Origin: a virus
Taxonomy: Duplodnaviria; Heunggongvirae; Uroviricota; Caudoviricetes
DNA: 64,000 nt
IMG/VR virus record: IMGVR_UViG_3300028992_000036
Reading direction: 5' to 3' (one strand)
Shown here: positions 41,598-61,727 of the stretch, piece by piece
Numbering within the stretch: position 1 is the stretch's first letter
Layout: each line of letters begins with the position of its first letter
Translations under genes and position numbers: made by a program
The notes under the pieces: generated by a model
Seen by the model: only the letters and a program-made list of their open reading frames with translations
The model's database searches: none
What the model was told of the DNA's origin: nothing

Positions 41598-43913
41598 TCA
41601 GATTTTGCAGGCTCCGTCGCACTCATCTTCTGGCTCGACGGCTACAGCTTGCGTCAGTGGATTCTGCGGTTCGTCGTCATCACGCTTTCCTGCCCCATCT
41701 CTGGTGTTGTGGTAGTAAAGCGTTTTAACTCCCATCTTGTAGGCGAGAAGCACATCTGACAGTAGCGTCATCATTGGGACTTTATCGCCTTCAAAGCGAG
41801 AAGGGTCATAGTTGGTATTGGCTGAAATAGCCTGGTCAAAGAACTTCTGGATGATCGCCACCTTTGTCAGATAGCCGCGGTTGTCCGGCATATCCCACAG
41901 GTATTCATACTGTTCCTTCAGTTTTTCAAACTCAGGCACGACCATCTTGACGATGCCGTCCTTAGAAGATTTCACTGACACCGGGCCACGAGGCGGTTCG
42001 ATGCCGTTGGTGGAATTAGTGATCTGGCTGGAAGTCTCGCATGGCATTTGTGCCGTCAGTGTGGAGTTGCGAAGGCCGTATTTTGCAATACGTTCACGCA
42101 GTTCTTCCCACGGCATCTTTAACTCAAAGTTGGTTTCGCCACTTTCGTCTAATGAAGAACGGTAATGGTCGATCGGCAACTGACCAATTGCGTACTTGGT
42201 CTGCTCAAACCAGTCACACTCACCTTTTGCTTCAGCAAGTCGGCAGCTGGCATCAAGAAGGTAATACTGGATAGCTTCGAACGTTTCATGCACCAGTTTA
42301 TTGCCAGCGGTATCAGAATAACGAACGCCATTTTTTGCCAGGTAATAAGCAAAGTTGGTTACACCAATTCCCAAGCTACGACGAGCTTTGGCAGGCACTT
42401 CGGCTGCCTCCATCGGATAGTCTTGATAATCCAGTAACGAATCCAGTGCAGCAACGGCATAGAACGCCACCTCTTTAAGAGACTCCAGTGAACGGATGGC
42501 TCCGAGGTTAAAAGCGGATAAAGTGCATAGCGCGATCTCACCGTTCGGGTCGTCGGTAAATGCCAGTGGACGGGTGGGTAGGGTGATCTCCATACACAGG
42601 TTTGACTGGCGGACAGGTGCAAGAGCAGGAATGAAAGCGCCATGCTCATTAATATGATCGACGTTCGCAATATAAATTCGGCCCGTGGACGCTCGTTCCT
42701 GCATCAGAGATGAGAACAGCTCAATGGCAGGTACTGACTTCTTGCGAATTGAATCATCGGCTTCGTATTTATGGTACAGCTTTTCAAACAGATCCTGGTC
42801 TGTGAAGAAGGCTTCGTACATATCAGGCACATCATGCGGGCTGAACAGAGTGATGTTCTCGCTTCTGACGAGTCGACGGTACATCAGACGGTTACTCATG
42901 ACACCGTAATCAAGATGGCGAACGCGGTTTTCATCGATACCACGGTTATTTTTCACCACCAGCAGACTTTCAACTTCAAGATGCCAAATCGGGTAAAACG
43001 CTGTTGCTGCGCCACCACGGACACCACCTTGCGAGCAAGATTTAACAGCAGTCTGGAAATGCTTCAGGAATGGAATAACTCCGGTATGGGTGGCTTCACC
43101 ATTGCGGATCTCGCTGCCCAGCGCACGGATACGGCCAAAACCAATACCAATTCCAGCACGACGTGAAACGTAGTCGATAATTGCGGCTGAAGCTGCACTA
43201 ATCCCTTTCAGACTATCGCCAGACTCAATCAGCACACAACTGGAGAACTGACGGGTTGGAGTACGGACGCCGGCCATGATTGGTGTGGGCAGAGACAGTT
43301 TGAACGTACTTGTAACGTCATAGAAACCTTTGACCATCTCCATACGTGTTTTGCCAGCGCAGTCGTCTTCCCAATTCTGGAACAGACACATGCCCACCAG
43401 CATATAGATATGTTGCGGCCCCTCATGAATCTCACCAGTAACACGGTTTTGAACGAGGTATTTGCTTTGCAATTGCACCGTAGCCGCATAGCCAAAAAGA
43501 TCGTCACGTTTAGGCTTAATGTAATTGCCGAGTTCTTCGATCTCTTCAAATGAATAATGTGTCAGCAAATCCTTGTCATAAACGCCCTTGCTAACGTTCT
43601 TGATAATGTGTTGGTAGAAGTTCGGATAGTCGTAACGACCGAAGGCATCTTTGCGGATTTTAAAAATGTTCAGGCGGGCAGCCACCTGCGAGTAATTTGG
43701 TGCATCTGGTGAGATCAAATCAGCGGCAGATTTAACCAAAGCCTCATGCAACTGGCTGGTGGTAATCCCATCAAAAATGCTGGCCGCAGCTCCCATTGCT
43801 ACAGCGGATGCGCTTACACCACGAATGCCTTCTACGCCATACATTACGACGCGGTTGTATTTTTCTTCGGATAACGGCTCTGTTTGGCCGTTACGTTTTA
43901 CGATGCTTATCAT
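41598..43913 (-). CDS. nrdA: ribonucleotide reductase class Ia alpha subunit
   Basis: 771 aa, collinear with E. coli NrdA as recalled (ATP-cone, PTRQFSSCVLIE, NLCMEI, C-terminal CxxC tail). Confidence 0.95.
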   Translation of the reverse strand: MISIVKRNGQTEPLSEEKYNRVVMYGVEGIRGVSASAVAMGAAASIFDGITTSQLHEALVKSAADLISPDAPNYSQVAARLNIFKIRKDAFGRYDYPNFYQHIIKNVSKGVYDKDLLTHYSFEEIEELGNYIKPKRDDLFGYAATVQLQSKYLVQNRVTGEIHEGPQHIYMLVGMCLFQNWEDDCAGKTRMEMVKGFYDVTSTFKLSLPTPIMAGVRTPTRQFSSCVLIESGDSLKGISAASAAIIDYVSRRAGIGIGFGRIRALGSEIRNGEATHTGVIPFLKHFQTAVKSCSQGGVRGGAATAFYPIWHLEVESLLVVKNNRGIDENRVRHLDYGVMSNRLMYRRLVRSENITLFSPHDVPDMYEAFFTDQDLFEKLYHKYEADDSIRKKSVPAIELFSSLMQERASTGRIYIANVDHINEHGAFIPALAPVRQSNLCMEITLPTRPLAFTDDPNGEIALCTLSAFNLGAIRSLESLKEVAFYAVAALDSLLDYQDYPMEAAEVPAKARRSLGIGVTNFAYYLAKNGVRYSDTAGNKLVHETFEAIQYYLLDASCRLAEAKGECDWFEQTKYAIGQLPIDHYRSSLDESGETNFELKMPWEELRERIAKYGLRNSTLTAQMPCETSSQITNSTNGIEPPRGPVSVKSSKDGIVKMVVPEFEKLKEQYEYLWDMPDNRGYLTKVAIIQKFFDQAISANTNYDPSRFEGDKVPMMTLLSDVLLAYKMGVKTLYYHNTRDGAGKRDDDEPQNPLTQAVAVEPEDECDGACKI

Positions 43914-49628: not shown

Positions 49629-49730
49629 GTATGCTGTCAGCGGTAATTGATAGTCTGTCAGCGGTTCACCGTATGCTGCCAACTGTTTTTGGTATTCTGT
49701 CAGCGGCAAATCAAGTATGCTGTCAGCGGT
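49629..49730 (+). repeat. origin iterons: 5 copies of (G)TATGCTGTCAGCGGT at 22-bp spacing
   Basis: Direct repeats at about 49629, 49651, 49671 (degenerate), 49693, 49715, ending 20 bp before the repA ATG. Confidence 0.75.
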
Positions 49731-49750
49731 TGAATGACAAAGGTGTCCAC

Positions 49751-50845
49751 ATGTCCACAAAAAATAAAAAAGGTAAAAATAACAAAGAAGTAGAAGATAA
49801 CATCGACAACTTTGAAGAAGGTTCCCTTGAATTGTACACAGGGGAACTTGTCCCTAATAGCAACAATACAGTCCAACCAATTGCGTTGATGCGACTGGGG
49901 TTGTTCGTCCCCACGCTTAAGGGAACAAAATACAGTAAACGTAACAAGCCAAATGAGATCGATGCTTCAAAGGAGCTTGTCCAGCTCGAAGTAGCCCGTT
50001 CTGAAGGCTATTCCGATATCAAGATAACCGGTCCTCGTCTCGACATGGATCATGATTTCAAAACGTGGGTGGGCGTTGTGCGTTCGCTGGCAGAATACGG
50101 CGAACCTAACGGTCGTGTCGAGTTAAGCATCACGAAATTTGCGAAGTTTTGTGGCTATCCATCGTCACAGATCCGCAAAACACTCCGCGACCGGCTTACA
50201 AACAGTCTTTTGAAGATCATGCGTACAACTCTGTCTTTCCAGAGAACGTATGAAGAAAAGAACGTCGACGGCTCTAACAAGATCTCGCTTCTGATGGTGC
50301 ACCTCATCAATAGCGTGGACTACAACGAGCAGAAAGATACGGTGGTGTTCTATGCAGAACCGAAGCTGGCCGAACTATATCGCTTTGACCATAAGGTTCT
50401 TTTGCAGTTAAAGGTTATCAATAAGCTACCACGCAAAGAAACAGCACAGGCTCTGTACACCTTCATCGAAAGTCTTCCAACCAAGCCTGCGCCGGTATCG
50501 CTTGCTCGATTGCGTGCGCGACTCAATTTGAGTAGCAGGAATGTCAGCTCGCAGAATCAGACTATACGTAACGGCTTAAAAGCTCTCCAAGATTTGGGCT
50601 ATCTCGAATACAGCGAGATTAAGCGTGGGCGGTCGATCTATATCCAGATTCACAGCCGCAATCCAAAACTCAAAGTCGCACCGCCAAAACCTGAAGACAT
50701 CGAACCCAAAAAACCAGATGAGAAAGCCGGGGAAATTGATGCCAAACAGAACATTATCAATAAGATAACCGAACTTTCGCAGAATTTGACGCCTGAAAAT
50801 ATCAAGATGATTGAGATCCTTTCCAATAGTCTCAAACTGCTTTGA
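49751..50845 (+). CDS. repA: plasmid replication initiator RepA-like (iteron-binding); start curated to MSTKNKKGK
   Basis: 364-aa basic protein flanked on both sides by arrays of the same 16-bp iteron; architecture of P1/F-type theta replicons. Confidence 0.7.
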   Translation: MSTKNKKGKNNKEVEDNIDNFEEGSLELYTGELVPNSNNTVQPIALMRLGLFVPTLKGTKYSKRNKPNEIDASKELVQLEVARSEGYSDIKITGPRLDMDHDFKTWVGVVRSLAEYGEPNGRVELSITKFAKFCGYPSSQIRKTLRDRLTNSLLKIMRTTLSFQRTYEEKNVDGSNKISLLMVHLINSVDYNEQKDTVVFYAEPKLAELYRFDHKVLLQLKVINKLPRKETAQALYTFIESLPTKPAPVSLARLRARLNLSSRNVSSQNQTIRNGLKALQDLGYLEYSEIKRGRSIYIQIHSRNPKLKVAPPKPEDIEPKKPDEKAGEIDAKQNIINKITELSQNLTPENIKMIEILSNSLKLL

Positions 50846-52463: not shown

Positions 52464-52619
52464 GTGTTTTCTCCTTGTTGGTAAGTACTTATCTATCTTA
52501 ATGGGCGCTATAAGGCGCACAATCATTGTGTTCAGGCTGGTGGAAAGAACTTCTCCAGCGTGTGGTTGATAGCCTTATCAATGTGCATCAGGTGCCAGAC
52601 GACCATATCTTTGCTTCCA

Positions 52620-53339
<720 letters not shown>

Positions 53340-53346
<7 letters not shown>

Positions 53347-56300
53347 CCCACCATTCGTTGCATACTTTGCGTCCACGAGGCTTTAAATGCTGAATCTCCT
53401 GCGAACAACTTGTAGAGCTCAAGTTCATCTTTACGGCGTTGCAGCATGATTTCCTTGAGCATTTTTTCGAAGGCCAAATTTCGATTATGGGGATCTGGGT
53501 TGTTTTTGTATTTCGATTCGAAGTCAGGGTGATTGCGGATACTTTCAGCGATGTTCACGAACTTAACCTTTTGCTCTTCAGGTGTGGCACTCCAGCCCTG
53601 GAACCATCGCTCATTAAATGTGCGAATGATTTCATCCAGCGGGTCAGTTTCTTTTTCACCGCCATGCACCCCACGTGGGTTCGGATTTTGAGGATCAAGC
53701 TCCGCTTCTTGGTCACTAAGTTTAATGCTGTGGTTAAGCTTCACACGTTGCAAACCGTATGAACTCAGATCGACAGAATCGAGAAGCTCATCAATAGCAT
53801 CAGCATCGGGATCTTCCACTTTCAATTTCGGTATTAAAAACTTCAGGAACCAAAACAGTTTTTCCCAGCTGACCATTTCATAAGGCATGATAGAAGCCAT
53901 CTGCCCATAGATTTTAACGAACTGTTTGGCTTTAATCTTAAAGTCCACTTTAGCTTCAGCTTCAAGATCTAGTTCATGGTCAAACCGCGCTGCGGCAATA
54001 TCAATGATTGGACTGAGTGTTTGGGCGTCTTCATTCTTGAAATAACGCGTCACAAAGTCTTCAACTTCATACCACTCGTACACACCGACATCGTCCATTT
54101 CATCTTTCAACTCGTGCAGTACGTTTATATCTGTAGCTTGGGACAATGACGTTGCTGTATAGAAAGGATCGAATGCTGATTGAATATCTTCAACCGAGTT
54201 GAAAAAATCCAGGATAAACAAGTCTTCTGTTTTCTTCCCTAGCTTAGGTGCACTGCGATTGAGCCTAGATAGCGCCTGAACACACAAGACACTGGCGAGC
54301 TTCTTATCTACATACATGGCGCAAAGCTTAGGCTGGTCAAACCCAGTCAGATACTTGTTAGCAACCACTAAAAGTCGATACTCATCGGTATCAAACATAT
54401 CTTTGGTATCTGACTCGGCAAAACCATTAATATCTGCTTCGGTATATTCAATACCATCAACTTCTTTGGTTCCTGAGAAAGCAATGGCAACTTTAAACGG
54501 GTTTCCTTGCTCCTCAAGTATTCGCCTTATCGCTTTGTAGTATCGAATGGCCGCCTCAATATTTTGAGTGACCACCATTCCTTTACCTTTACCTTTGAGC
54601 TTTTTCGTATTCACGACATGCGGAACAAAATGCTCCAGCATAATCTCTGCCTTGATATCAATTGTTTGCTGGCTTCGTTCTACATAAGCTCTGAGTTTTT
54701 TCTGCGCCTTTTTGGTATCAAACTCAGGGTTATCAGCAATTGATTTCTCAATCTCATAATAACTTTTGTACGTCGTATAATTTGCCAGCACATCCAAGAT
54801 GAAGCCTTCTTCAATGGCTTGTTTCATCGAATACAAGTGAAACGGCTTGTAAGAGCCATCTTCTTGGCGTTGACCAAATTTCTCCAAAGTGCTGTTTTTT
54901 GGTGTCGCTGTAAATGCCAGGTACGACGCATTCCCGCGCATCTTACGCGATCTCATCGCCTGAAGGATTTTATCCTGAGCATCTTCTGCCTCTTCGACTT
55001 CAGACTTGCCCATCGCTCGGTTCATATTGTCATGCGCCGAACCAGACTGTGAGCTGTGTGCTTCATCGATGATCACTGCAAAGCGCTTGTCACTAAGATC
55101 GGCGATACCATCAATAATGAACGGGAATTTCTGAATCGTCGTTATAATAATCTTTTTGCCATTCTCCAGCGCCTGCTTAAGCTCAGAAGACTTATTCGCT
55201 GGGGCAATAATGTTCTTTACTTCAGAAAACTCTTTAATGTTATCCCGCAGCTGCTTGTCCAATAGGCGTCTATCGGTGACCACAATCACAGAGTCAAACA
55301 ACGGCTGCTCCAAGCTTTTTCCGCCTGCCACATCAGACGAAGCAGGATAGGTTTCAATTAGCTGATAAGCTGCCCAGGTAATCGAGTTAGACTTACCTGA
55401 ACCGGCTGAGTGTTGAATTAAGTAAGTCTGACCGACACCGTGCTGGGCGGCATGGTCTACTAATTTTCTCACCACATCCAATTGATGGTATCGAGGAAAG
55501 AACAGGGTTCGCTTGGGTAATGGATCTTTGCTTGACCCATCCAGACGCACAAAATGCTGAATAATATTCGCCAAGCTGTCTTTAGTGAATACTTCTTGCC
55601 ATAGGTATGCCGTTTTATGGCCAGATGGATTCGGCGGGTTGCCTTGTCCAAGATTGTGACCTTTATTGAACGGCAAGAAGAATGTACTGCTACCTGATAA
55701 CTTGGTGGTCATATACACTTCGTCGGTATCGACCGCCATATGCACTAGGCAGCGGCCAAAGGTCAGCAATGGCTGAGTTGCATCCCGATCATCTCGATAC
55801 TGCTTTTGGCCGTGATAACGTGCTGTTTGCCCGGTCCATGCGTTCTTCAACTCCAGCGTTATCAAGGGTATTCCGTTGATAAACAATACCATGTCGATTT
55901 CTTGTAGGGGATTTACCATGGAATAGCGCACTTGGCGAGTACAACTAAACACGTTATCTGCAAAGTTTTGCTTTACCTTCTCACTACTACTTGCCAAAGG
56001 GGCTGGATAGAGCAAATTGAAATGAGCATCGTCTACGCTTAGCCCTTTCTTAAGTAAATGAAGAATGCCATGCTTCTTAATCAGTCGGTCAAATCGTTCG
56101 AGTAACTTACGTTGCCAATCTGAGGGGTTGTTCTTTTGCAGTTTGGCCAACTCTACTTCTTGTGTCTTTTGCAGAAATTGCCAGAAAAAACGTTCATCAA
56201 TGGCATATTGCATATTAAAGTCACTAGCAGCACCAATGAAGTATCCAGCACCCAGTGACTGCTGACTCAGCCCCTCTTTGAGCTCTTCAGTACTGATCCC

Positions 56301-56357
56301 AGCCAGACATTTCTCAATGGCCGACTCTAATGCTTGTTCATTGGTTTGACTGACCAT
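53340..56357 (-). CDS. hsdR: Type I restriction enzyme R subunit
   Basis: 1005 aa; N-terminal PD-(D/E)xK ([17 protein letters not shown]), SF2 helicase Walker [10 protein letters not shown] and DEAH (VIIDEAHSS); last gene of M-S-X-R operon. Confidence 0.9.
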
Positions 56358-56371
56358 AATTGTAAGTTCCC

Positions 56372-57535
56372 TTAATCAAAATTCTTCTGTTTCATTGCCT
56401 CAGCCGCTTTTTGCAGCGGTCCTTTTAAGGCTTTTTCTAACTTTGTCATCTGCTCTAAGTGCCACGCAACCGCTTGGGGCCAAGTCTCTTTGTTAAACCC
56501 GTCAGCTTTGGTCGAAAACTGGATACGGCAAGATTTCTTCTCATCCAGCCTCATCCACTCAAGTTCTGCACCAAAAGTATGCTCAATGTCTTGTTTGGAC
56601 TGACTCAACAAATCAAAAAGGTATTTATTCTCTTCGGTAACCCCACGGCTGATCCAAAGCTCTACTCGAAGCTCTTTTTGCAGAAATATCAGGTTATACG
56701 GACATCCACTTAGCCCTGAGCCTGCTGATAACCAATGATCTTTGCTTGGGCTAATGTTGTTATAGAGTTGGCAAGAGCTTTTCTGAAACGCCTCTAAGGC
56801 ACGCTCCCAGTACTCGCGACGCACGGTATGGCGGTTTTTTAGTACCACTTCGGTGGTTTTTTCTTCCGCTTCCTTGGCATTAATGCCGATCATCAACTCT
56901 TTCGCTTCTGGCGTTGGAATGATCTGGTCAATATTAATCAGTAGCTGTTCACCCAGTGAATAAGGCGTGATTTTGAAGCAGGCAATGCTAATGCCTTGAC
57001 CCAATAACCACAGCGCGGTGCTGGTCACTTCTTTGCGAAAGTTTGCCGCAACTAACATAATGCGCTGGCTGTTACCCAGGTTGAGCTTTAACTCATCGAG
57101 ATCGGGCGCATCCAAAAACTCACATATTCTAGCAGAGGCACTTGCAGGGGTATTAAACAAGTCAACCTCTCCTGTTACAGGCTCATAGCGGTCTAAGTAC
57201 TGCTGGTAAATTTCAACGATTTGCGCTTTGGTTAAACTTGCGCAGTAGGAGGCATATTTAAGCGCCTGCCACACCACATCGCGGCCACTGTCGTCCAGCT
57301 TGTTTTCAATAATGACCAAGTTGCCATCTTTATCCAGTGCCAGTAAATCTAAGCGTTCACGGGTGTCATCAAAGCCATCGAACTCTTTTTGAATAATCAG
57401 CAGCTCTTCACCCAGTGCGGAAGGCTCGTGTGCCAACCATTCCTGAAGATTTTTGCGCTCAGTAAAGCCCAACTCACTGAATCTCTTCGTCTTAACCGGA
57501 CTAATCCTGTTGGTCTGATGATTTACCGTGAACAT
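56372..57535 (-). CDS. RM-embedded protein of unknown function; N-terminal PD-(D/E)xK nuclease-like motif (NucS/DUF91-like) plus uncharacterised C-terminal domain
   Basis: 387 aa, tightly packed between hsdS (9-bp gap) and hsdR (14-bp gap); motif ERLDLLALDKDGNLVIIENKLD...VWQALKYASY; no Walker A/B. Confidence 0.6.
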   Translation of the reverse strand: MFTVNHQTNRISPVKTKRFSELGFTERKNLQEWLAHEPSALGEELLIIQKEFDGFDDTRERLDLLALDKDGNLVIIENKLDDSGRDVVWQALKYASYCASLTKAQIVEIYQQYLDRYEPVTGEVDLFNTPASASARICEFLDAPDLDELKLNLGNSQRIMLVAANFRKEVTSTALWLLGQGISIACFKITPYSLGEQLLINIDQIIPTPEAKELMIGINAKEAEEKTTEVVLKNRHTVRREYWERALEAFQKSSCQLYNNISPSKDHWLSAGSGLSGCPYNLIFLQKELRVELWISRGVTEENKYLFDLLSQSKQDIEHTFGAELEWMRLDEKKSCRIQFSTKADGFNKETWPQAVAWHLEQMTKLEKALKGPLQKAAEAMKQKNFD

Positions 57536-57544
57536 ATTCGCTTC

Positions 57545-58873
57545 CTATTGCTCAACCATTTCTGGGGTGATCTTGATTTTTCCTGTCACGGCGCTGTTGA
57601 TCAGGGTGGTTTTATATTCTTTAAGCTTTTCGATTTGTATTTTTTGATACTCTATAGCTCGCTCAACATCACCATTTAATCTGTTAATGTACGTAATAAT
57701 TCCATCTCGTTCATTTTTAGAAGGGGGGAAAGGCACAAAAATGCTATTAAGATTCCCCACTGTAAGCTGATTAATTGTTGATGTAAGAAATGTCCCTGAT
57801 AACATTTTGAAAACATCACTATTTAGAATGCAAAATAAATACTCATTGTGTTTAGATCTGAATACCGTAGTAAAGGCCCCGAAGCTGTTTCCCTCATCAG
57901 CGTCAGATACAAATGCACACTTGCCAATTAGGTCTCGACTTCCATTCCTGGAGCATATCAAAATATCACCTTTTTTAAGCTTTAAGTGCTCAGGAATAAA
58001 GCAATTGACATAAACATTTTCCTTTTCACCATACTTAAACTTCCCTTCGTATAAGTTTGATGATCGCGCAACTAGAGTTCCGCCTTTTTCATCACTTAAA
58101 TCATTTGGCGAATAAGTTAACCCAATGATCGATTTACCAAGATATTTTAACCTCTTAACGTCCCAATGCGCTGGAATCTTACCAATCCAATCCACACCGG
58201 AGTCTTTCATTGGCACATTGGGATCAAGCCCTTGGGTCACCGCCTGTTGGATGATGATCTGCTTACGCTCTTTCAGCAGGCTAATTTGCTGCTCTTTGAT
58301 CGAAATCGCTTCGTCGATTAGAGCGGTTTTCTTGTCGAGGAAGCAGGCAATTAGAAGTTGTTCCTCGGTTGGTGGCAAAAATACCAAGGCTCGTTTTAAT
58401 TGAGGCCAATATAGGTTTCTCTGAATTGTTCCTACACCTTTTGAGCTAACTAAGTAATTAGCCACCATTGCCCCATCTCTGAACAGATAGTTACCAAAGC
58501 GGGGAACTATATCTTCCGATAAAGAAAGAACTAAGTAAGCTGGGCTGACTATTCCTCGGTAATCAGAAACACCGACTGAACCACGCCAAGCTTGCTGATT
58601 ATTTAAAACAAAGTCACCTGGATCTACCAACTGATACTTAGTCAGATCCGAACTGGTTGTATTTGTACGTTTTGCATCAACGTCATCGAATTTTATTACT
58701 CCTTTGTCCAAATAGACTGATAGAAGCTCTTCATTTTCATTATTAGAAATAGATTTTAATTTTGATTTTGCGCACAAAGGAAATGAATTCCAGTGAACTG
58801 GTATGGCCCCTATCCATTCAACACCTGAATCTTTATAAGCCTCATATTTCGGCATTTCAGAAATCTTCATCAT
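57545..58873 (-). CDS. hsdS: Type I restriction-modification specificity subunit
   Basis: 442 aa with two target-recognition halves separated by conserved coiled-coil spacer (EQQISLLKERKQIIIQQAVTQGLD...; C-terminal ...KIQIEKLKEYKTTLINSAVTGKIKI). Confidence 0.85.
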   Translation of the reverse strand: MMKISEMPKYEAYKDSGVEWIGAIPVHWNSFPLCAKSKLKSISNNENEELLSVYLDKGVIKFDDVDAKRTNTTSSDLTKYQLVDPGDFVLNNQQAWRGSVGVSDYRGIVSPAYLVLSLSEDIVPRFGNYLFRDGAMVANYLVSSKGVGTIQRNLYWPQLKRALVFLPPTEEQLLIACFLDKKTALIDEAISIKEQQISLLKERKQIIIQQAVTQGLDPNVPMKDSGVDWIGKIPAHWDVKRLKYLGKSIIGLTYSPNDLSDEKGGTLVARSSNLYEGKFKYGEKENVYVNCFIPEHLKLKKGDILICSRNGSRDLIGKCAFVSDADEGNSFGAFTTVFRSKHNEYLFCILNSDVFKMLSGTFLTSTINQLTVGNLNSIFVPFPPSKNERDGIITYINRLNGDVERAIEYQKIQIEKLKEYKTTLINSAVTGKIKITPEMVEQ

Positions 58874-58879
58874 AACGAC

Positions 58880-61303
58880 TTACCCCTGAACCTTTTTTAC
58901 TTCCGCACCAAGAATCTGCGCAATCAAACCTTCGGCTTTTTGTTCTAGGTTGATGATGTCGGTTGCGACCTCTTCTAAACTACGCAGCGGTTTATGACGG
59001 TAGAAATACTTATTGAAGCTGATTTCATAGCCAATTTTTACCGTATCTAGGTTTATCCATGCTTCATCGACATGAGGCTTCACTTCATCTAGGAAGTACT
59101 GGTAAATGCTTTGCTTTAATGGAACAGATTCTGTATCTCGCAGGTCTGAATTGGTCTCGTAAGTGATATACTCGCCTTTTTTACCGCCTTCTGCTGAAGG
59201 AACGGGGTAATAACCAAAATCTGGCAAGTCAGCGACTTCACACTCATAGCGCTCCAGCAGGTCGTTTAATTTATCACCCGTTAATTTAACTACCTTTTTA
59301 ACCACTTTCTTGGCGGTTTCGTCATACCAGCTCACCGCGTGAAGAATGGCATTTTTCTCAGGTGCTGAAAGCTTAATAGCATGGGCTTTTAGCGATTTAT
59401 CAACTTGGGTTTTAAAGCTATTGAAGTCATCAAATTCAATGCTACCGATGTCAGCCATCAGCGTTTGTGCAGTTTCAAGCAATGCTTTTAGCGCCAGCCA
59501 GTGTTTCACATCAAGCAGTTTGGCCTTAGCCTTAGCATTGAGACTGATGTCGTTATCTTCACACCAAGAAAGAATGTCTTTCTCGATGGATTTTAAGAAG
59601 CTCTTTTTCTGATCTGACCCGTAGCCAGTTTTTTCGTAAACACGTTCGCCGTGCTCTGCGTACACGTACTCCATCACTTCACTAAGTTGCTTATCAAAAC
59701 GCAGTGGGGCTATGGCATCTTGAGTAAACTTGGCTTTGCGGCGATCTGGGCGCTCGATAGTGACTTTGTAGTAGCCAAAATCGTCATTGCTGAATACCTT
59801 ACTGGCGATGCCAACAGGATCATTGTTTGCATCCAGTGCTCTTTCAACATCCTTACACGCGAGGTAAGTATCGGTAATTTCCGTGATGTGCTCAGGCGCA
59901 AATTCGCAGTTTTTGTTACCTAAGTTCTTGCGCAACTTACGGTAGAGCAAGCTGGCATCAATTAATTGCACCTTACCTTTACGCGCCTCAGGTTTATTGT
60001 TGTTCAACACCCAAATGTAAGTGGTAATGCCAGTGTTATAGAACAGGTTATTAGGTAACTGAACGATGGCATCTAGCATGTCGTTTTCAATGATGAAGCG
60101 ACGAATATTACTTTCGCCACCGCCCGCATCACCGGTAAAGAGCGATGAGCCGTTATGAACAGAGGCAATCCGGCTGCCTAATGGACTTACGCTCGGATCT
60201 TTCATCTTGTTGACCATCTCCATTAAGAAAAGCAGCTGGCCATCACTCGAACGTGGCGTGGCATCCACCACTTCGAGATTTCCCCAATAGTCTTTCAGGC
60301 TAACCTTAAAACGCGGGTCAATCACATCGCTGCCGTCTTTAATGTACTTCTGTTCAGACGCCCAACTCTTACCGTATGGCGGGTTAGACAACATAAAGTC
60401 AAAGCGAGAAGCCGCAAACTCGTCGGTAGACAAGGTTGAGCCTACCTTGATGTTCTCAGGGTTGTTACCTTTGATCATCATGTCCGATTTACAAATCGCG
60501 TAGGTCTCGTCATTGATCTCTTTGCCGTAAAGGTAAATATCTCGGCTGTCGTTCGGGTATTTCTCTTCAATGAAGTTTTGAGATTCAGTGAGCATACCAC
60601 CGCTACCACACGCAGGGTCGTAAACGGTCATGGTCAATGGTAGCTGCTCTTTCACTGGGTCAAAAACCAAGTGTGTCATCAGCTCAATCACTTCCCTAGG
60701 TGTAAAGTGCTCACCGGCTTCTTCGTTATTCTCCTCGTTGAACTTACGGATCAACTCTTCGAACACGTACCCCATACCCAGGTTAGTAAGGGCTGGCATC
60801 TTGTTGCCATCTGGGTCTTCGATCGTTTCATGAGTTAAGTTGATGTAAGGGGAAACAAACTTTTCGACGACATCAAGAAGGACTTGCTTTGAGGCCATGT
60901 GACGAATTTGCGACTTGAGGTTAAAGCATTCAATGATTTCTTTAACATTATCGCTAAAGCCAAGCAGGTACTCTTCAAAGTTGGCGAGTAATATCTGTTG
61001 GTTATTCGTTGCGGTGTTGAACAGGGATTTCAGGGTCCATTTAGATGTATTGTAAAAAACATAACCACTAGCCGCCTTCAATGGTTCATCATCAAGCTCC
61101 GTGGCTTGCATCTCTTCTTTTTGGAACTTGACCTCTTCAAGCACGGCTTCTTTGGTGGGTTCAAGTAACGTATCTAAACGTCGTAATACCACCATAGGTA
61201 AAATCACATCGCGGTACTTACCGCGAACGTACACATCACGTAAACAGTCGTCGGCAATGTTCCATATAAATGAGATGAGCTTGTTATGTACACTATGATC
61301 CAT
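58880..61303 (-). CDS. hsdM: Type I restriction-modification methyltransferase subunit with about 280-aa C-terminal extension (start curated to MDHSVHNKLI)
   Basis: HsdM N-terminal domain, motif I DPACGSGGML, motif IV NPPYG; 807 aa versus about 520-540 for classical HsdM. Confidence 0.85.
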   Translation of the reverse strand: MDHSVHNKLISFIWNIADDCLRDVYVRGKYRDVILPMVVLRRLDTLLEPTKEAVLEEVKFQKEEMQATELDDEPLKAASGYVFYNTSKWTLKSLFNTATNNQQILLANFEEYLLGFSDNVKEIIECFNLKSQIRHMASKQVLLDVVEKFVSPYINLTHETIEDPDGNKMPALTNLGMGYVFEELIRKFNEENNEEAGEHFTPREVIELMTHLVFDPVKEQLPLTMTVYDPACGSGGMLTESQNFIEEKYPNDSRDIYLYGKEINDETYAICKSDMMIKGNNPENIKVGSTLSTDEFAASRFDFMLSNPPYGKSWASEQKYIKDGSDVIDPRFKVSLKDYWGNLEVVDATPRSSDGQLLFLMEMVNKMKDPSVSPLGSRIASVHNGSSLFTGDAGGGESNIRRFIIENDMLDAIVQLPNNLFYNTGITTYIWVLNNNKPEARKGKVQLIDASLLYRKLRKNLGNKNCEFAPEHITEITDTYLACKDVERALDANNDPVGIASKVFSNDDFGYYKVTIERPDRRKAKFTQDAIAPLRFDKQLSEVMEYVYAEHGERVYEKTGYGSDQKKSFLKSIEKDILSWCEDNDISLNAKAKAKLLDVKHWLALKALLETAQTLMADIGSIEFDDFNSFKTQVDKSLKAHAIKLSAPEKNAILHAVSWYDETAKKVVKKVVKLTGDKLNDLLERYECEVADLPDFGYYPVPSAEGGKKGEYITYETNSDLRDTESVPLKQSIYQYFLDEVKPHVDEAWINLDTVKIGYEISFNKYFYRHKPLRSLEEVATDIINLEQKAEGLIAQILGAEVKKVQG

Positions 61304-61464
61304 TTTCTTTTCCTGTTCAGTGTTGGTTGCACCCCACAAAGTTGCTGCAACGGCTTCACTATAAATTTAAAATTCTGTTCTTTCTGTAACGCCTAAATGG
61401 CCGCTACATCGTTCGATTAACTTGTTCTACCCGGCGCTAGATTTAAGTTTATGACACCATAAAG

Positions 61465-61512: not shown

Positions 61513-61535
61513 ACCTCAGAGTCATTTAAGATGAC

Positions 61536-61727
61536 TTAAAGAGAGGTGTACAGCTCGGTATTCAGACCAGTCCACTGACGGCCAACGCCGACAACTTCAC
61601 CGATACCTTTGTCTTCACCCAATTTGTTTACTTTGATGCCAACGTACCCAGGCTCAACACGATCGCAGCCTGTAAGACCCATTGTGCAAACAGCAGCCAC
61701 GATCACTGCCAGTAAACCTTTCTTCAT
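61536..61727 (-). CDS. small lipoprotein
   Basis: MKKGLLAVIVAAVCTMGLTGC with lipobox LTGC; 63 aa. Confidence 0.4.
   Translation of the reverse strand: MKKGLLAVIVAAVCTMGLTGCDRVEPGYVGIKVNKLGEDKGIGEVVGVGRQWTGLNTELYTSL

What the first reader, a model, noticed from the sequence alone, without database searches (positions are those of the whole stretch)
56372..57535. Uncharacterised PD-(D/E)xK-like gene embedded inside a Type I R-M operon (hsdM-hsdS-X-hsdR)
A 387-aa ORF sits between hsdS and hsdR with 9- and 14-bp gaps, so it is almost certainly co-transcribed. This is the slot occupied by the anticodon nuclease PrrC in prr loci, but X has no P-loop. Its N-terminus carries a restriction-endonuclease-fold motif (ERLDLLALDKDGNLVIIENKLD ... 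VWQALKYASY). The C-terminal 250 aa are unrecognisable to me; from memory the architecture may correspond to DUF91/NucS-like plus DUF4268, but that is unverified. RM-embedded genes are typically back-up defence effectors triggered when restriction is inhibited. I know of no characterised function for this architecture.
Basis: partly seen in the sequence, partly recalled or inferred. Interest (0 to 1): 0.85.

Follow-up and report, generated by a model that had tools for sequence, protein, structure and literature searches.

The report
MdgA-like nuclease inside Type I R-M
The gene wedged between hsdS and hsdR is real, but its family is already catalogued (PADLOC candidate PDC-S11) and one member, MdgA, was shown in 2025 to cut hypermodified phage DNA, so this is an ordinary new copy of a known defence gene on a mobile restriction cassette.

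Summary
A 387-aa ORF lies on the minus strand at 56372..57535, 9 bp after hsdS and 14 bp before hsdR. It has no Walker A motif and carries D63...E77-x-K79...Q90xxxY94.

The protein matches PADLOC PDC-S11 over its full length (E 2e-182). Payne et al. 2024 defined that candidate family by exactly this "guilt-by-embedding" in Type I R-M, BREX and DISARM.

A "NucS + DUF4268" protein, MdgA, was shown in Cell Host Microbe 2025 to be necessary and sufficient for defence against T4. It degrades glucosyl-HMC T4 DNA and is killed by E77A. The published E77A primer encodes VIV[A]NKLDD; X has V74-I-I-E77-NKLDD in the same register.

Among 80 species-level homolog loci, 41 sit between hsdM/hsdS and hsdR, in two different Type I families, and 25 have no Type I gene nearby.

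Best reading: an autonomous Type IV-like, modification-dependent nuclease that covers phages whose modified DNA escapes the Type I enzyme. A PrrC-like guard role is unsupported but not excluded. Low novelty.

The parts
56372..57535 (-). X: 387-aa MdgA-like / PDC-S11 protein (NucS-type PD-(D/E)xK nuclease + DUF4268)
   Evidence: ORF. PADLOC PDC-S11 PDLC04913, E 1.8e-182, aa 1-383 of 387. AF2 model with pLDDT 94.5.
56915..57535 (-). N-terminal nuclease domain, about aa 1-207 (core alpha-beta-beta-beta-alpha at aa 26-98, plus an extension)
57254..57349 (-). Catalytic motif D63 ... E77-N-K79 ... Q90-x-x-x-Y94
   Evidence: D63, K79 and Y94 are invariant and E77 and Q90 >=90% conserved in 81 diverse homologs. 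E77 corresponds to the residue mutated in MdgA E77A.
56420..56824 (-). DUF4268 domain (aa 238-372), preceded by a long helix (aa 209-251); putative substrate-recognition module
57545..58873 (-). hsdS, Type I specificity subunit (442 aa)
   Evidence: Pfam Methylase_S; PADLOC Specificity_I E 1.8e-128.
58880..61339 (-). hsdM, Type I methyltransferase (819 aa from TTG; 807 aa from the ATG at 61303 used by PGAP)
   Evidence: HsdM_N + N6_Mtase. PADLOC MTase_I E 3.5e-268. PGAP annotation in NZ_CP022167.1.
53340..56357 (-). hsdR, Type I restriction subunit (1005 aa) with its own nuclease motif D155..E169-L-K171 and DEAH box
   Evidence: HSDR_N, SWI2_SNF2, ResIII and T1R_D3-like domains. Motifs located.
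52642..53268 (-). Truncated IS911 transposase remnant at the hsdR-distal edge of the cassette (approximate coordinates)
   Evidence: PGAP pseudogene in the near-identical plasmid NZ_CP022167.1, mapped to the window by blastn.
61524..61727 (-). Truncated SPFH-domain gene remnant at the hsdM-proximal edge of the cassette (approximate coordinates)
   Evidence: PGAP pseudogene in NZ_CP022167.1, mapped by blastn.

Best explanation
X is a member of the MdgA / PDC-S11 family: a single-polypeptide, modification-dependent (Type IV-like) DNA endonuclease.

Proposed mechanism:
- The N-terminal NucS-type PD-(D/E)xK domain (D63, E77, K79, Q90, Y94) cuts DNA.
- The C-terminal DUF4268 module, joined by a long helix, most likely selects the substrate, namely hypermodified phage DNA such as the glucosyl-hydroxymethylcytosine DNA of T-even phages or Mom-modified Mu DNA.
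- X acts on its own and does not need the Type I enzyme.

Why it sits there: between hsdS and hsdR it is co-transcribed and co-mobilised with a Type I system that attacks unmodified DNA. The cassette therefore covers both phages that lack the host methylation and phages that escape Type I restriction by hypermodifying their bases.

Shown here: the architecture, the fold, the conserved catalytic residues, family membership, and the embedding statistics. Shown by others for a homolog: sufficiency for defence, cleavage of glc-HMC DNA, and loss of function in E77A. Inferred: that X shares this activity and specificity, that DUF4268 is the sensor, and the complementarity rationale.
For: - PADLOC PDC-S11 full-length hit, E 1.8e-182.
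- Pfam DUF4268, E 1e-39.
- Catalytic residues invariant or nearly so across the family.
[quoted passage not shown] It does not defend against T4-GT7 (unmodified cytosine). Purified protein degrades T4 DNA much better than T4-GT7 DNA. E77A abolishes both activity and defence. It also defends against Mu.
- The MdgA E77A primer encodes V-I-V-[A]-N-K-L-D-D. X has V74-I-I-E77-N-K-L-D-D, and this register (codon 74) is shared across the family.
- Autonomy: 25 of 80 homolog loci have no Type I gene within 7 kb, and their neighbours include housekeeping genes.
- DUF4268 behaves as a portable module. It is fused to GmrSD Type IV enzymes (PMC4619093) and to a different PD-(D/E)xK nuclease in MdgB. It also occurs as 3-5 tandem copies in some relatives.
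- In homologous loci the same slot also holds bona fide Type IV GmrSD genes.
- The whole cassette is stably carried in 56 of 5426 complete E. coli genomes. By inference, Dam/Dcm and the cognate HsdM methylation are not substrates.
Against: - The full MdgA sequence could not be retrieved, so identity between X and MdgA is unknown. Only a 9-residue primer-encoded stretch, the numbering and the domain description link them.
- The family is broad, with members down to about 30% identity, and specificity may differ between clades.
- DUF4268 has a T3SS-chaperone/YbjN-like fold with no precedent as a modified-DNA reader. Its sensor role is a published speculation, not a result.
- Long-term linkage with two different Type I families could reflect functional coupling rather than mere co-mobility.
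- No experiment exists on X itself.
Confidence: 0.65

Rival explanations
1. PrrC-like guard. X is held inactive by the Type I complex and is released as a back-up nuclease when a phage anti-restriction protein (Ocr, ArdA, Stp-like) disables HsdMSR.
For: X occupies the same slot as prrC, between hsdS and hsdR, with tight 9- and 14-bp spacing. 41 of 80 homolog loci are embedded in Type I operons of two different families, which suggests selected linkage. 32 of those 41 have an HsdS ORF directly upstream of X.
Against: The homolog MdgA defends alone on a plasmid in E. coli and is constitutively active in vitro on T4 DNA. 25 of 80 homologs have no Type I neighbour. X has no Walker A or ABC-ATPase sensor domain and no PrrC/RloC match in PADLOC. 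Other genes in the same slot (GmrSD, Fic, PIN, NERD-UvrD) are autonomous systems, so the slot looks like a cargo site.
Confidence: 0.1
2. X is an antiphage DNA nuclease of the same family, but in this clade it responds to a different cue from the one MdgA uses. Examples are another base modification (7-deazaguanines, 5-hmU derivatives, phosphorothioate) or DNA ends and structures, as in Shedu.
Against: Both tested DUF4268 nucleases (MdgA and MdgB) show the same modification-dependent phenotype, restricting T4 but not T4-GT7. DUF4268 co-occurs with GmrSD Type IV enzymes.
Confidence: 0.2
3. X is not a defence effector. It would be either an accessory subunit of the Type I enzyme or a NucS-type repair nuclease that merely hitch-hikes in the operon.
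For: The nuclease domain's closest solved structure is the mismatch-repair endonuclease NucS. A UniRef name for one close homolog is 'Endonuclease NucS'.
Against: The NCBIfam NucS equivalog scores 23.9 bits against a 216-bit cut-off and covers only the catalytic half. HsdR carries its own complete nuclease motif and DEAH motor, so the Type I enzyme needs no extra nuclease. The family is defence-associated and a homolog is experimentally validated.
Confidence: 0.04

Closest known systems
MdgA (modification defense gene A; Cell Host Microbe 2025, PMC12366544 / bioRxiv 10.1101/2025.02.28.640651)
   Same: Single ORF with a NucS-like PD-(D/E)xK domain plus DUF4268. The catalytic Glu has the same number (E77) inside the same V-I-[IV]-E-N-K-L-D-D motif. 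The family is widespread across phyla.
   Different: MdgA came from a human faecal metagenomic insert next to a short-chain dehydrogenase gene, not from inside an R-M operon. X itself is untested.
PADLOC PDC-S11 (phage defence candidate; Payne et al. 2024, bioRxiv 10.1101/2024.01.29.577857)
   Same: X matches the PDC-S11 HMM end to end (E 1.8e-182). It shows the very property used to nominate PDCs, namely embedding in a Type I R-M operon.
   Different: PDC-S11 is a bioinformatic candidate without a mechanism. Nothing separates X from it.
PrrC / RloC anticodon nucleases in prr loci
   Same: Same genomic slot, between hsdS and hsdR of a Type I operon.
   Different: X has no ABC-ATPase or P-loop domain and no anticodon-nuclease domain. 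X is a DNA-type PD-(D/E)xK nuclease. Its homologs work without a Type I partner.
GmrSD / BrxU / SspE Type IV restriction enzymes
   Same: Single-protein, methyltransferase-independent nucleases aimed at modified phage DNA. They are often embedded in other defence systems. Some carry DUF4268 (PMC4619093). They share the hsdS-hsdR slot with X homologs (L008, L016, L017).
   Different: They use a different catalytic chemistry (DUF1524 HNH/His-Me finger) and an NTP-binding DUF262 domain. X has neither.
NucS / EndoMS mismatch endonuclease (PDB 2vld)
   Different: X lacks the NucS N-terminal DNA-binding/dimerisation domain and falls far below the family cut-off. Its context is defence, not repair.

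Membership tests
PADLOC PDC-S11 | Significant full-length match to a PDC-S11 profile HMM | tested here: met
   PDLC04913: E 1.8e-182, 604.5 bits, aa 1-383 aligned to profile positions 1-373 of 375. Seven further PDC-S11 models also hit.
PADLOC PDC-S11 | Found embedded in Type I R-M, BREX or DISARM operons | tested here: met
   In the window X lies between hsdS and hsdR. 41 of 80 species-level homolog loci lie between hsdM and hsdR.
MdgA-type modification-dependent nuclease | N-terminal NucS-like PD-(D/E)xK nuclease domain | tested here: met
MdgA-type modification-dependent nuclease | C-terminal DUF4268 domain | tested here: met
   PF14088: E 1.1e-39, aa 238-372, 136 bits against a 27-bit cut-off.
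MdgA-type modification-dependent nuclease | Catalytic Glu77 in the ExK motif | tested here: met
   X has E77-N-K79. The MdgA E77A primer encodes VIV[A]NKLDD versus VIIENKLDD in X, in the same codon register.
MdgA-type modification-dependent nuclease | Full-length sequence similarity to MdgA | not tested
   The MdgA sequence is not in the held supplements. Primer-pattern scans of the metagenome and viral contig collections found nothing.
MdgA-type modification-dependent nuclease | Preferential cleavage of hypermodified (glc-HMC) DNA; defence against T4 but not T4-GT7 | not testable with these tools
   Needs plaque assays and nuclease assays on X.
PrrC / RloC | N-terminal ABC-ATPase domain with Walker A | tested here: not met
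   No [AG]xxxxGK[ST] motif. No ATPase family found in Pfam, NCBIfam or PADLOC.
PrrC / RloC | Located between hsdS and hsdR of a Type I operon | tested here: met
PrrC / RloC | Activity masked by the Type I enzyme and unleashed by a phage anti-restriction factor | not testable with these tools
   Needs genetics. The autonomy of MdgA and the non-embedded homologs argue against it.
NucS / EndoMS | Full-length match above the NCBIfam equivalog cut-off, including the N-terminal domain | tested here: not met
   23.9 bits against a 216-bit cut-off. Only NucS positions 118-201 align.
Type I R-M system (flanking genes) | HsdM (HsdM_N + N6_Mtase), HsdS (Methylase_S) and HsdR (HSDR_N nuclease + SF2 motor), all as intact ORFs | tested here: met

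The most novel reading that the evidence does not exclude
In this cassette the MdgA-like nuclease is functionally wired to the Type I enzyme rather than merely parked in its operon. It might be held in check by, or recruited through, HsdM2S/HsdR, and fire when the Type I complex stalls on or is blocked by phage DNA or anti-restriction proteins. That would make it a DNA-cutting analogue of the PrrC guard. A related reading is that DUF4268, with its T3SS-chaperone-like fold, is a new class of protein- or modified-DNA sensor.
Probability: 0.1. Interest if true: 0.7.

Novelty: new member of a known kind. Interest (0 to 1): 0.3.

Why it matters
The practical value is annotation. Thousands of 'DUF4268 domain-containing protein' genes, including those on E. 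coli phage-plasmids and in SXT/R391 ICE hotspot 5 of Vibrio, Proteus and Providencia, can now be read as probable Type IV-like restriction nucleases.

Pairing this gene with a Type I system on one mobile cassette is a neat example of complementary coverage, with unmodified and hypermodified invaders handled by one operon. It bears on phage-therapy host range for T-even-like phages.

Two questions remain open. One is how DUF4268, a fold with no precedent in DNA-modification reading, recognises its substrate. The other is whether the conserved linkage to Type I operons is only co-mobility. Neither is a surprise to specialists after the 2024 and 2025 papers.

Tried and rejected
- **Retrieving the MdgA sequence.** The held supplements contain only primers. 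Exact-pattern scans with the E77 primer found nothing in metagenome contigs or viral contigs. None of the 270 fetched homologs starts with the primer-inferred MILNQSI. The link to MdgA therefore rests on the motif, its numbering and the domain description.
- **PDB sequence search.** No hit at E<=1. Fold search was needed instead.
- **The search for related loci with the 81-sequence alignment.** It failed because no stretch was conserved enough. A 23-sequence alignment worked.
- **END nucleases paper (PMC12191111).** Checked because it mentions NucS. It describes a different family (PLD nuclease + inactive EndoIII) and was used only as an analogy.
- **H-NS/immunity preprint that mentions NucS.** Not held in the library.
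- **Literature search for 'MdgA'.** Swamped by the unrelated MDGA1/2 and apple MdGA genes.
- **Phage records.** Only three distant partial hits, so X is not a common phage gene.
- **Rejected readings.** A solitary HsdS fragment, a transposase or a regulator: none has any family support.

Full report
**1. Observation**

The ORF is real. It lies at window 56372..57535 on the minus strand, starts with ATG and encodes 387 aa. On that strand the order is:
- hsdM, 58880..61339: HsdM_N + N6_Mtase
- hsdS, 57545..58873: Methylase_S
- X
- hsdR, 53340..56357: HSDR_N, SWI2_SNF2/ResIII, T1R_D3-like

The gaps are 9 bp and 14 bp, each with an SD-like purine run. The consensus scan shows no minus-strand terminator-like site at either junction and no excess of promoter-like sites, so co-transcription is plausible but not shown. 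HsdR has its own nuclease motif (D155...E169-L-K171) and a DEAH box, so the Type I system is complete without X.

**2. What X is**

- Pfam finds DUF4268 at aa 238-372 (E 1.1e-39).
- NCBIfam gives only a weak local hit of aa 16-101 to the catalytic half of NucS (23.9 bits against a 216-bit cut-off).
- PADLOC gives an end-to-end match to PDC-S11 (PDLC04913, E 1.8e-182).
- A sequence search of the PDB finds nothing.

Across the family, E26, D63, K79 and Y94 are invariant and E77 and Q90 are at least 90% conserved. This is the RecB/NucS-type D...ExK...QxxxY set.

**3. What is already known about this family**

PDC-S11 is one of 145 "phage defence candidates" that Payne et al. derived by guilt-by-embedding. 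These are genes nested in BREX, DISARM and Type I R-M operons that were then added to PADLOC (bioRxiv 10.1101/2024.01.29.577857).

A functional metagenomic selection later isolated mdgA (Cell Host Microbe 2025, PMC12366544; bioRxiv 10.1101/2025.02.28.640651). The findings on it are:
- It is necessary and sufficient for defence against T4.
- It does not defend against T4-GT7, which carries unmodified cytosine.
- It is also active against Mu.
- Purified MdgA degrades T4 DNA far better than T4-GT7 DNA.
- MdgA E77A is dead in vitro and in vivo.

The published E77A mutagenesis primer, GTTATTGTTGCAAACAAGCTAGATGAT, reads V-I-V-[A]-N-K-L-D-D. X reads V74-I-I-E77-N-K-L-D-D. In the homolog loci this motif starts at codon 74 of the gene, so the numbering is family-wide.

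I could not obtain the full MdgA sequence. Percent identity to X is therefore unknown, and this is the main gap in the argument.

DUF4268 is also fused to GmrSD Type IV enzymes (PMC4619093) and to another PD-(D/E)xK nuclease in MdgB. Some relatives carry 3-5 tandem copies. That is the behaviour of a portable binding module.

**4. Context in this window and elsewhere**

The window is 100% identical over this region to E. coli plasmid pRHB17-C18_2 (112 kb), and it also matches pM160133_p3 (113 kb). Both are non-mobilisable plasmids with RepB, nrdAB, CobT and phage-like genes. I take this to be an SSU5/pHCM2-type phage-plasmid; that call rests on gene content and my own knowledge, not on a test.

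The cassette is an insertion. A truncated IS911 transposase and a truncated DUF7238 gene lie beyond hsdR, and a truncated SPFH gene lies beyond hsdM.

Proteins at least 97% identical to X occur in Vibrio, Proteus, Providencia, Morganella, Salmonella, Alteromonas and Marinomonas. For the 98%-identical P0072 the locus is an SXT/R391-type ICE hotspot 5. Its gene order is rumAB, an RNase_T gene, a BrxR/WYL regulator, hsdM, hsdS, X, hsdR, a SAVED-HNH + DncV-like CBASS, then traI (compare LeGault et al.). The cassette is thus a widely travelling defence module. 56 of 5426 complete E. coli genomes hold at least 80% of it.

**5. Neighbourhood survey**

A scan of one genome per species returned at least 581 relatives. 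The best 80 (55-98% identity) were analysed.
- 41 lie between an upstream hsdM and a downstream hsdR on the same strand. In 32 of these the ORF directly upstream is a Methylase_S protein.
- 14 have some Type I gene nearby in another arrangement.
- 25 have none within 7 kb. Their neighbours are heterogeneous and include gyrase, P450 and transporter genes.

The embedding Type I systems fall into two clearly different families. 18 resemble the window's long-HsdM family (phmmer E effectively zero). 23 belong to a distant family (E 1e-10 to 1e-28).

In 19 of the 41 embedded loci, additional genes sit between X and hsdR. Those scanned are GmrSD-family Type IV enzymes (L008, L016, L017), SLFN_AlbA_2/HATPase_c_4 proteins, Fic, NERD-UvrD and PIN. 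The hsdS-hsdR interval therefore behaves as a cargo slot for autonomous defence genes, often ones aimed at modified DNA.

**6. Mechanism**

The best-supported reading (confidence about 0.65) is that X is an autonomous MdgA-type modification-dependent nuclease. The NucS-like domain cuts and the DUF4268 domain contributes substrate choice. The operon combines a Type I enzyme that restricts unmodified DNA with a Type IV-like enzyme that restricts hypermodified DNA, which Type I enzymes cannot cut. The substrate-recognition role of DUF4268 and the exact modification recognised by X are inferences.

The PrrC-like guard model (about 0.1) lacks support. X has no ATPase sensor, the homolog acts alone, and many relatives are not embedded. 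The persistent linkage to Type I operons keeps it formally open.

A same-family nuclease with a different trigger (about 0.2) cannot be excluded without the MdgA alignment or an assay.

A repair or accessory-subunit role (about 0.04) is contradicted by the failed NucS membership test and the self-sufficient HsdR.

**7. Verdict**

X is a new member of a known kind, and interest is low to moderate (0.3). The residual interest lies in how the chaperone-like DUF4268 fold could read DNA modification, and in whether the Type I linkage is more than co-mobility.

Noticed in passing
window 1-64000 (e.g. RepB 49631-50845; nrdA 41598-43913): The whole window matches E. coli plasmids of about 112-113 kb (CP057685.1, NZ_CP022167.1) that are typed non-mobilisable. 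They carry RepB, nrdAB, CobT-like, AAA ATPase, RecA, exonuclease, UDG and HNH genes. This looks like an SSU5/pHCM2-type phage-plasmid, so the R-M + X cassette is phage-plasmid cargo.
   Followed up: partly
window about 52531-53268 and about 61524-61727: The cassette is bounded by gene wreckage. On the hsdR side there is a truncated DUF7238 gene plus a truncated IS911 transposase. On the hsdM side there is a truncated SPFH-domain gene. This points to insertion by an IS-mediated or recombination event.
   Followed up: partly
L083-L088 (e.g. Alteromonas CP013930.1 1278565-1297728): A 98%-identical hsdM-hsdS-X-hsdR cassette sits in an SXT/R391-type ICE hotspot 5, between rumAB/RNase_T and traI. 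A BrxR-WYL regulator precedes it and a SAVED-HNH + DncV-like CBASS follows. The phage-plasmid copy lacks both BrxR and the CBASS.
   Followed up: partly
related plasmids NZ_CP015915.1, NZ_AP027746.1, NZ_CP075739.1 (hits H2, H4, H6): In several sister plasmids the matched cassette region also contains a group II intron reverse transcriptase/maturase gene (ltrA), and the match is split into three pieces. The cassette is therefore interrupted by an intron in those copies. The insertion point was not determined.
   Followed up: no
window 58880-61339 (hsdM): HsdM is unusually long at 807-819 aa. The Pfam domains end near aa 500, leaving a C-terminal extension of about 300 aa with no family hit. This long-HsdM type accompanies the X homologs that are 74-98% identical, while the more distant X homologs sit in operons with classic HsdM of about 520-600 aa.
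   Followed up: no
L008 9549-12999; L016 8161-11507; L017 8273-12227; L043 7864-10410; L044 8155-9174; L046 5629-6195; L077 5839-7782: In homologous operons the X-hsdR interval holds further embedded genes: GmrSD-family proteins (one with DUF7834), SLFN_AlbA_2 + HATPase_c_4, Fic, NERD-UvrD helicase and PIN. A 188-aa protein in L043 has no Pfam hit.
   Followed up: partly
proteins P0173 (726 aa), P0205 (536 aa), P0228 (739 aa): Some relatives carry 3-5 tandem DUF4268 domains. P0245 (822 aa) matches X aa 9-312 but has no Pfam family at all.
   Followed up: no
L005 622-6926 (Pseudoalteromonas sp. 0303): A 93%-identical X homolog that is not embedded follows two large ORFs of 1293 and 823 aa. The 823-aa ORF has no Pfam or PADLOC hit; the 1293-aa ORF was not scanned. 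They could be another unknown partner system.
   Followed up: no
window 57545-58873 (hsdS): hsdS has markedly lower GC (38.9%) than hsdM, X and hsdR (44-46%) and than the plasmid backbone (46.5%). This is consistent with specificity-subunit swapping.
   Followed up: no
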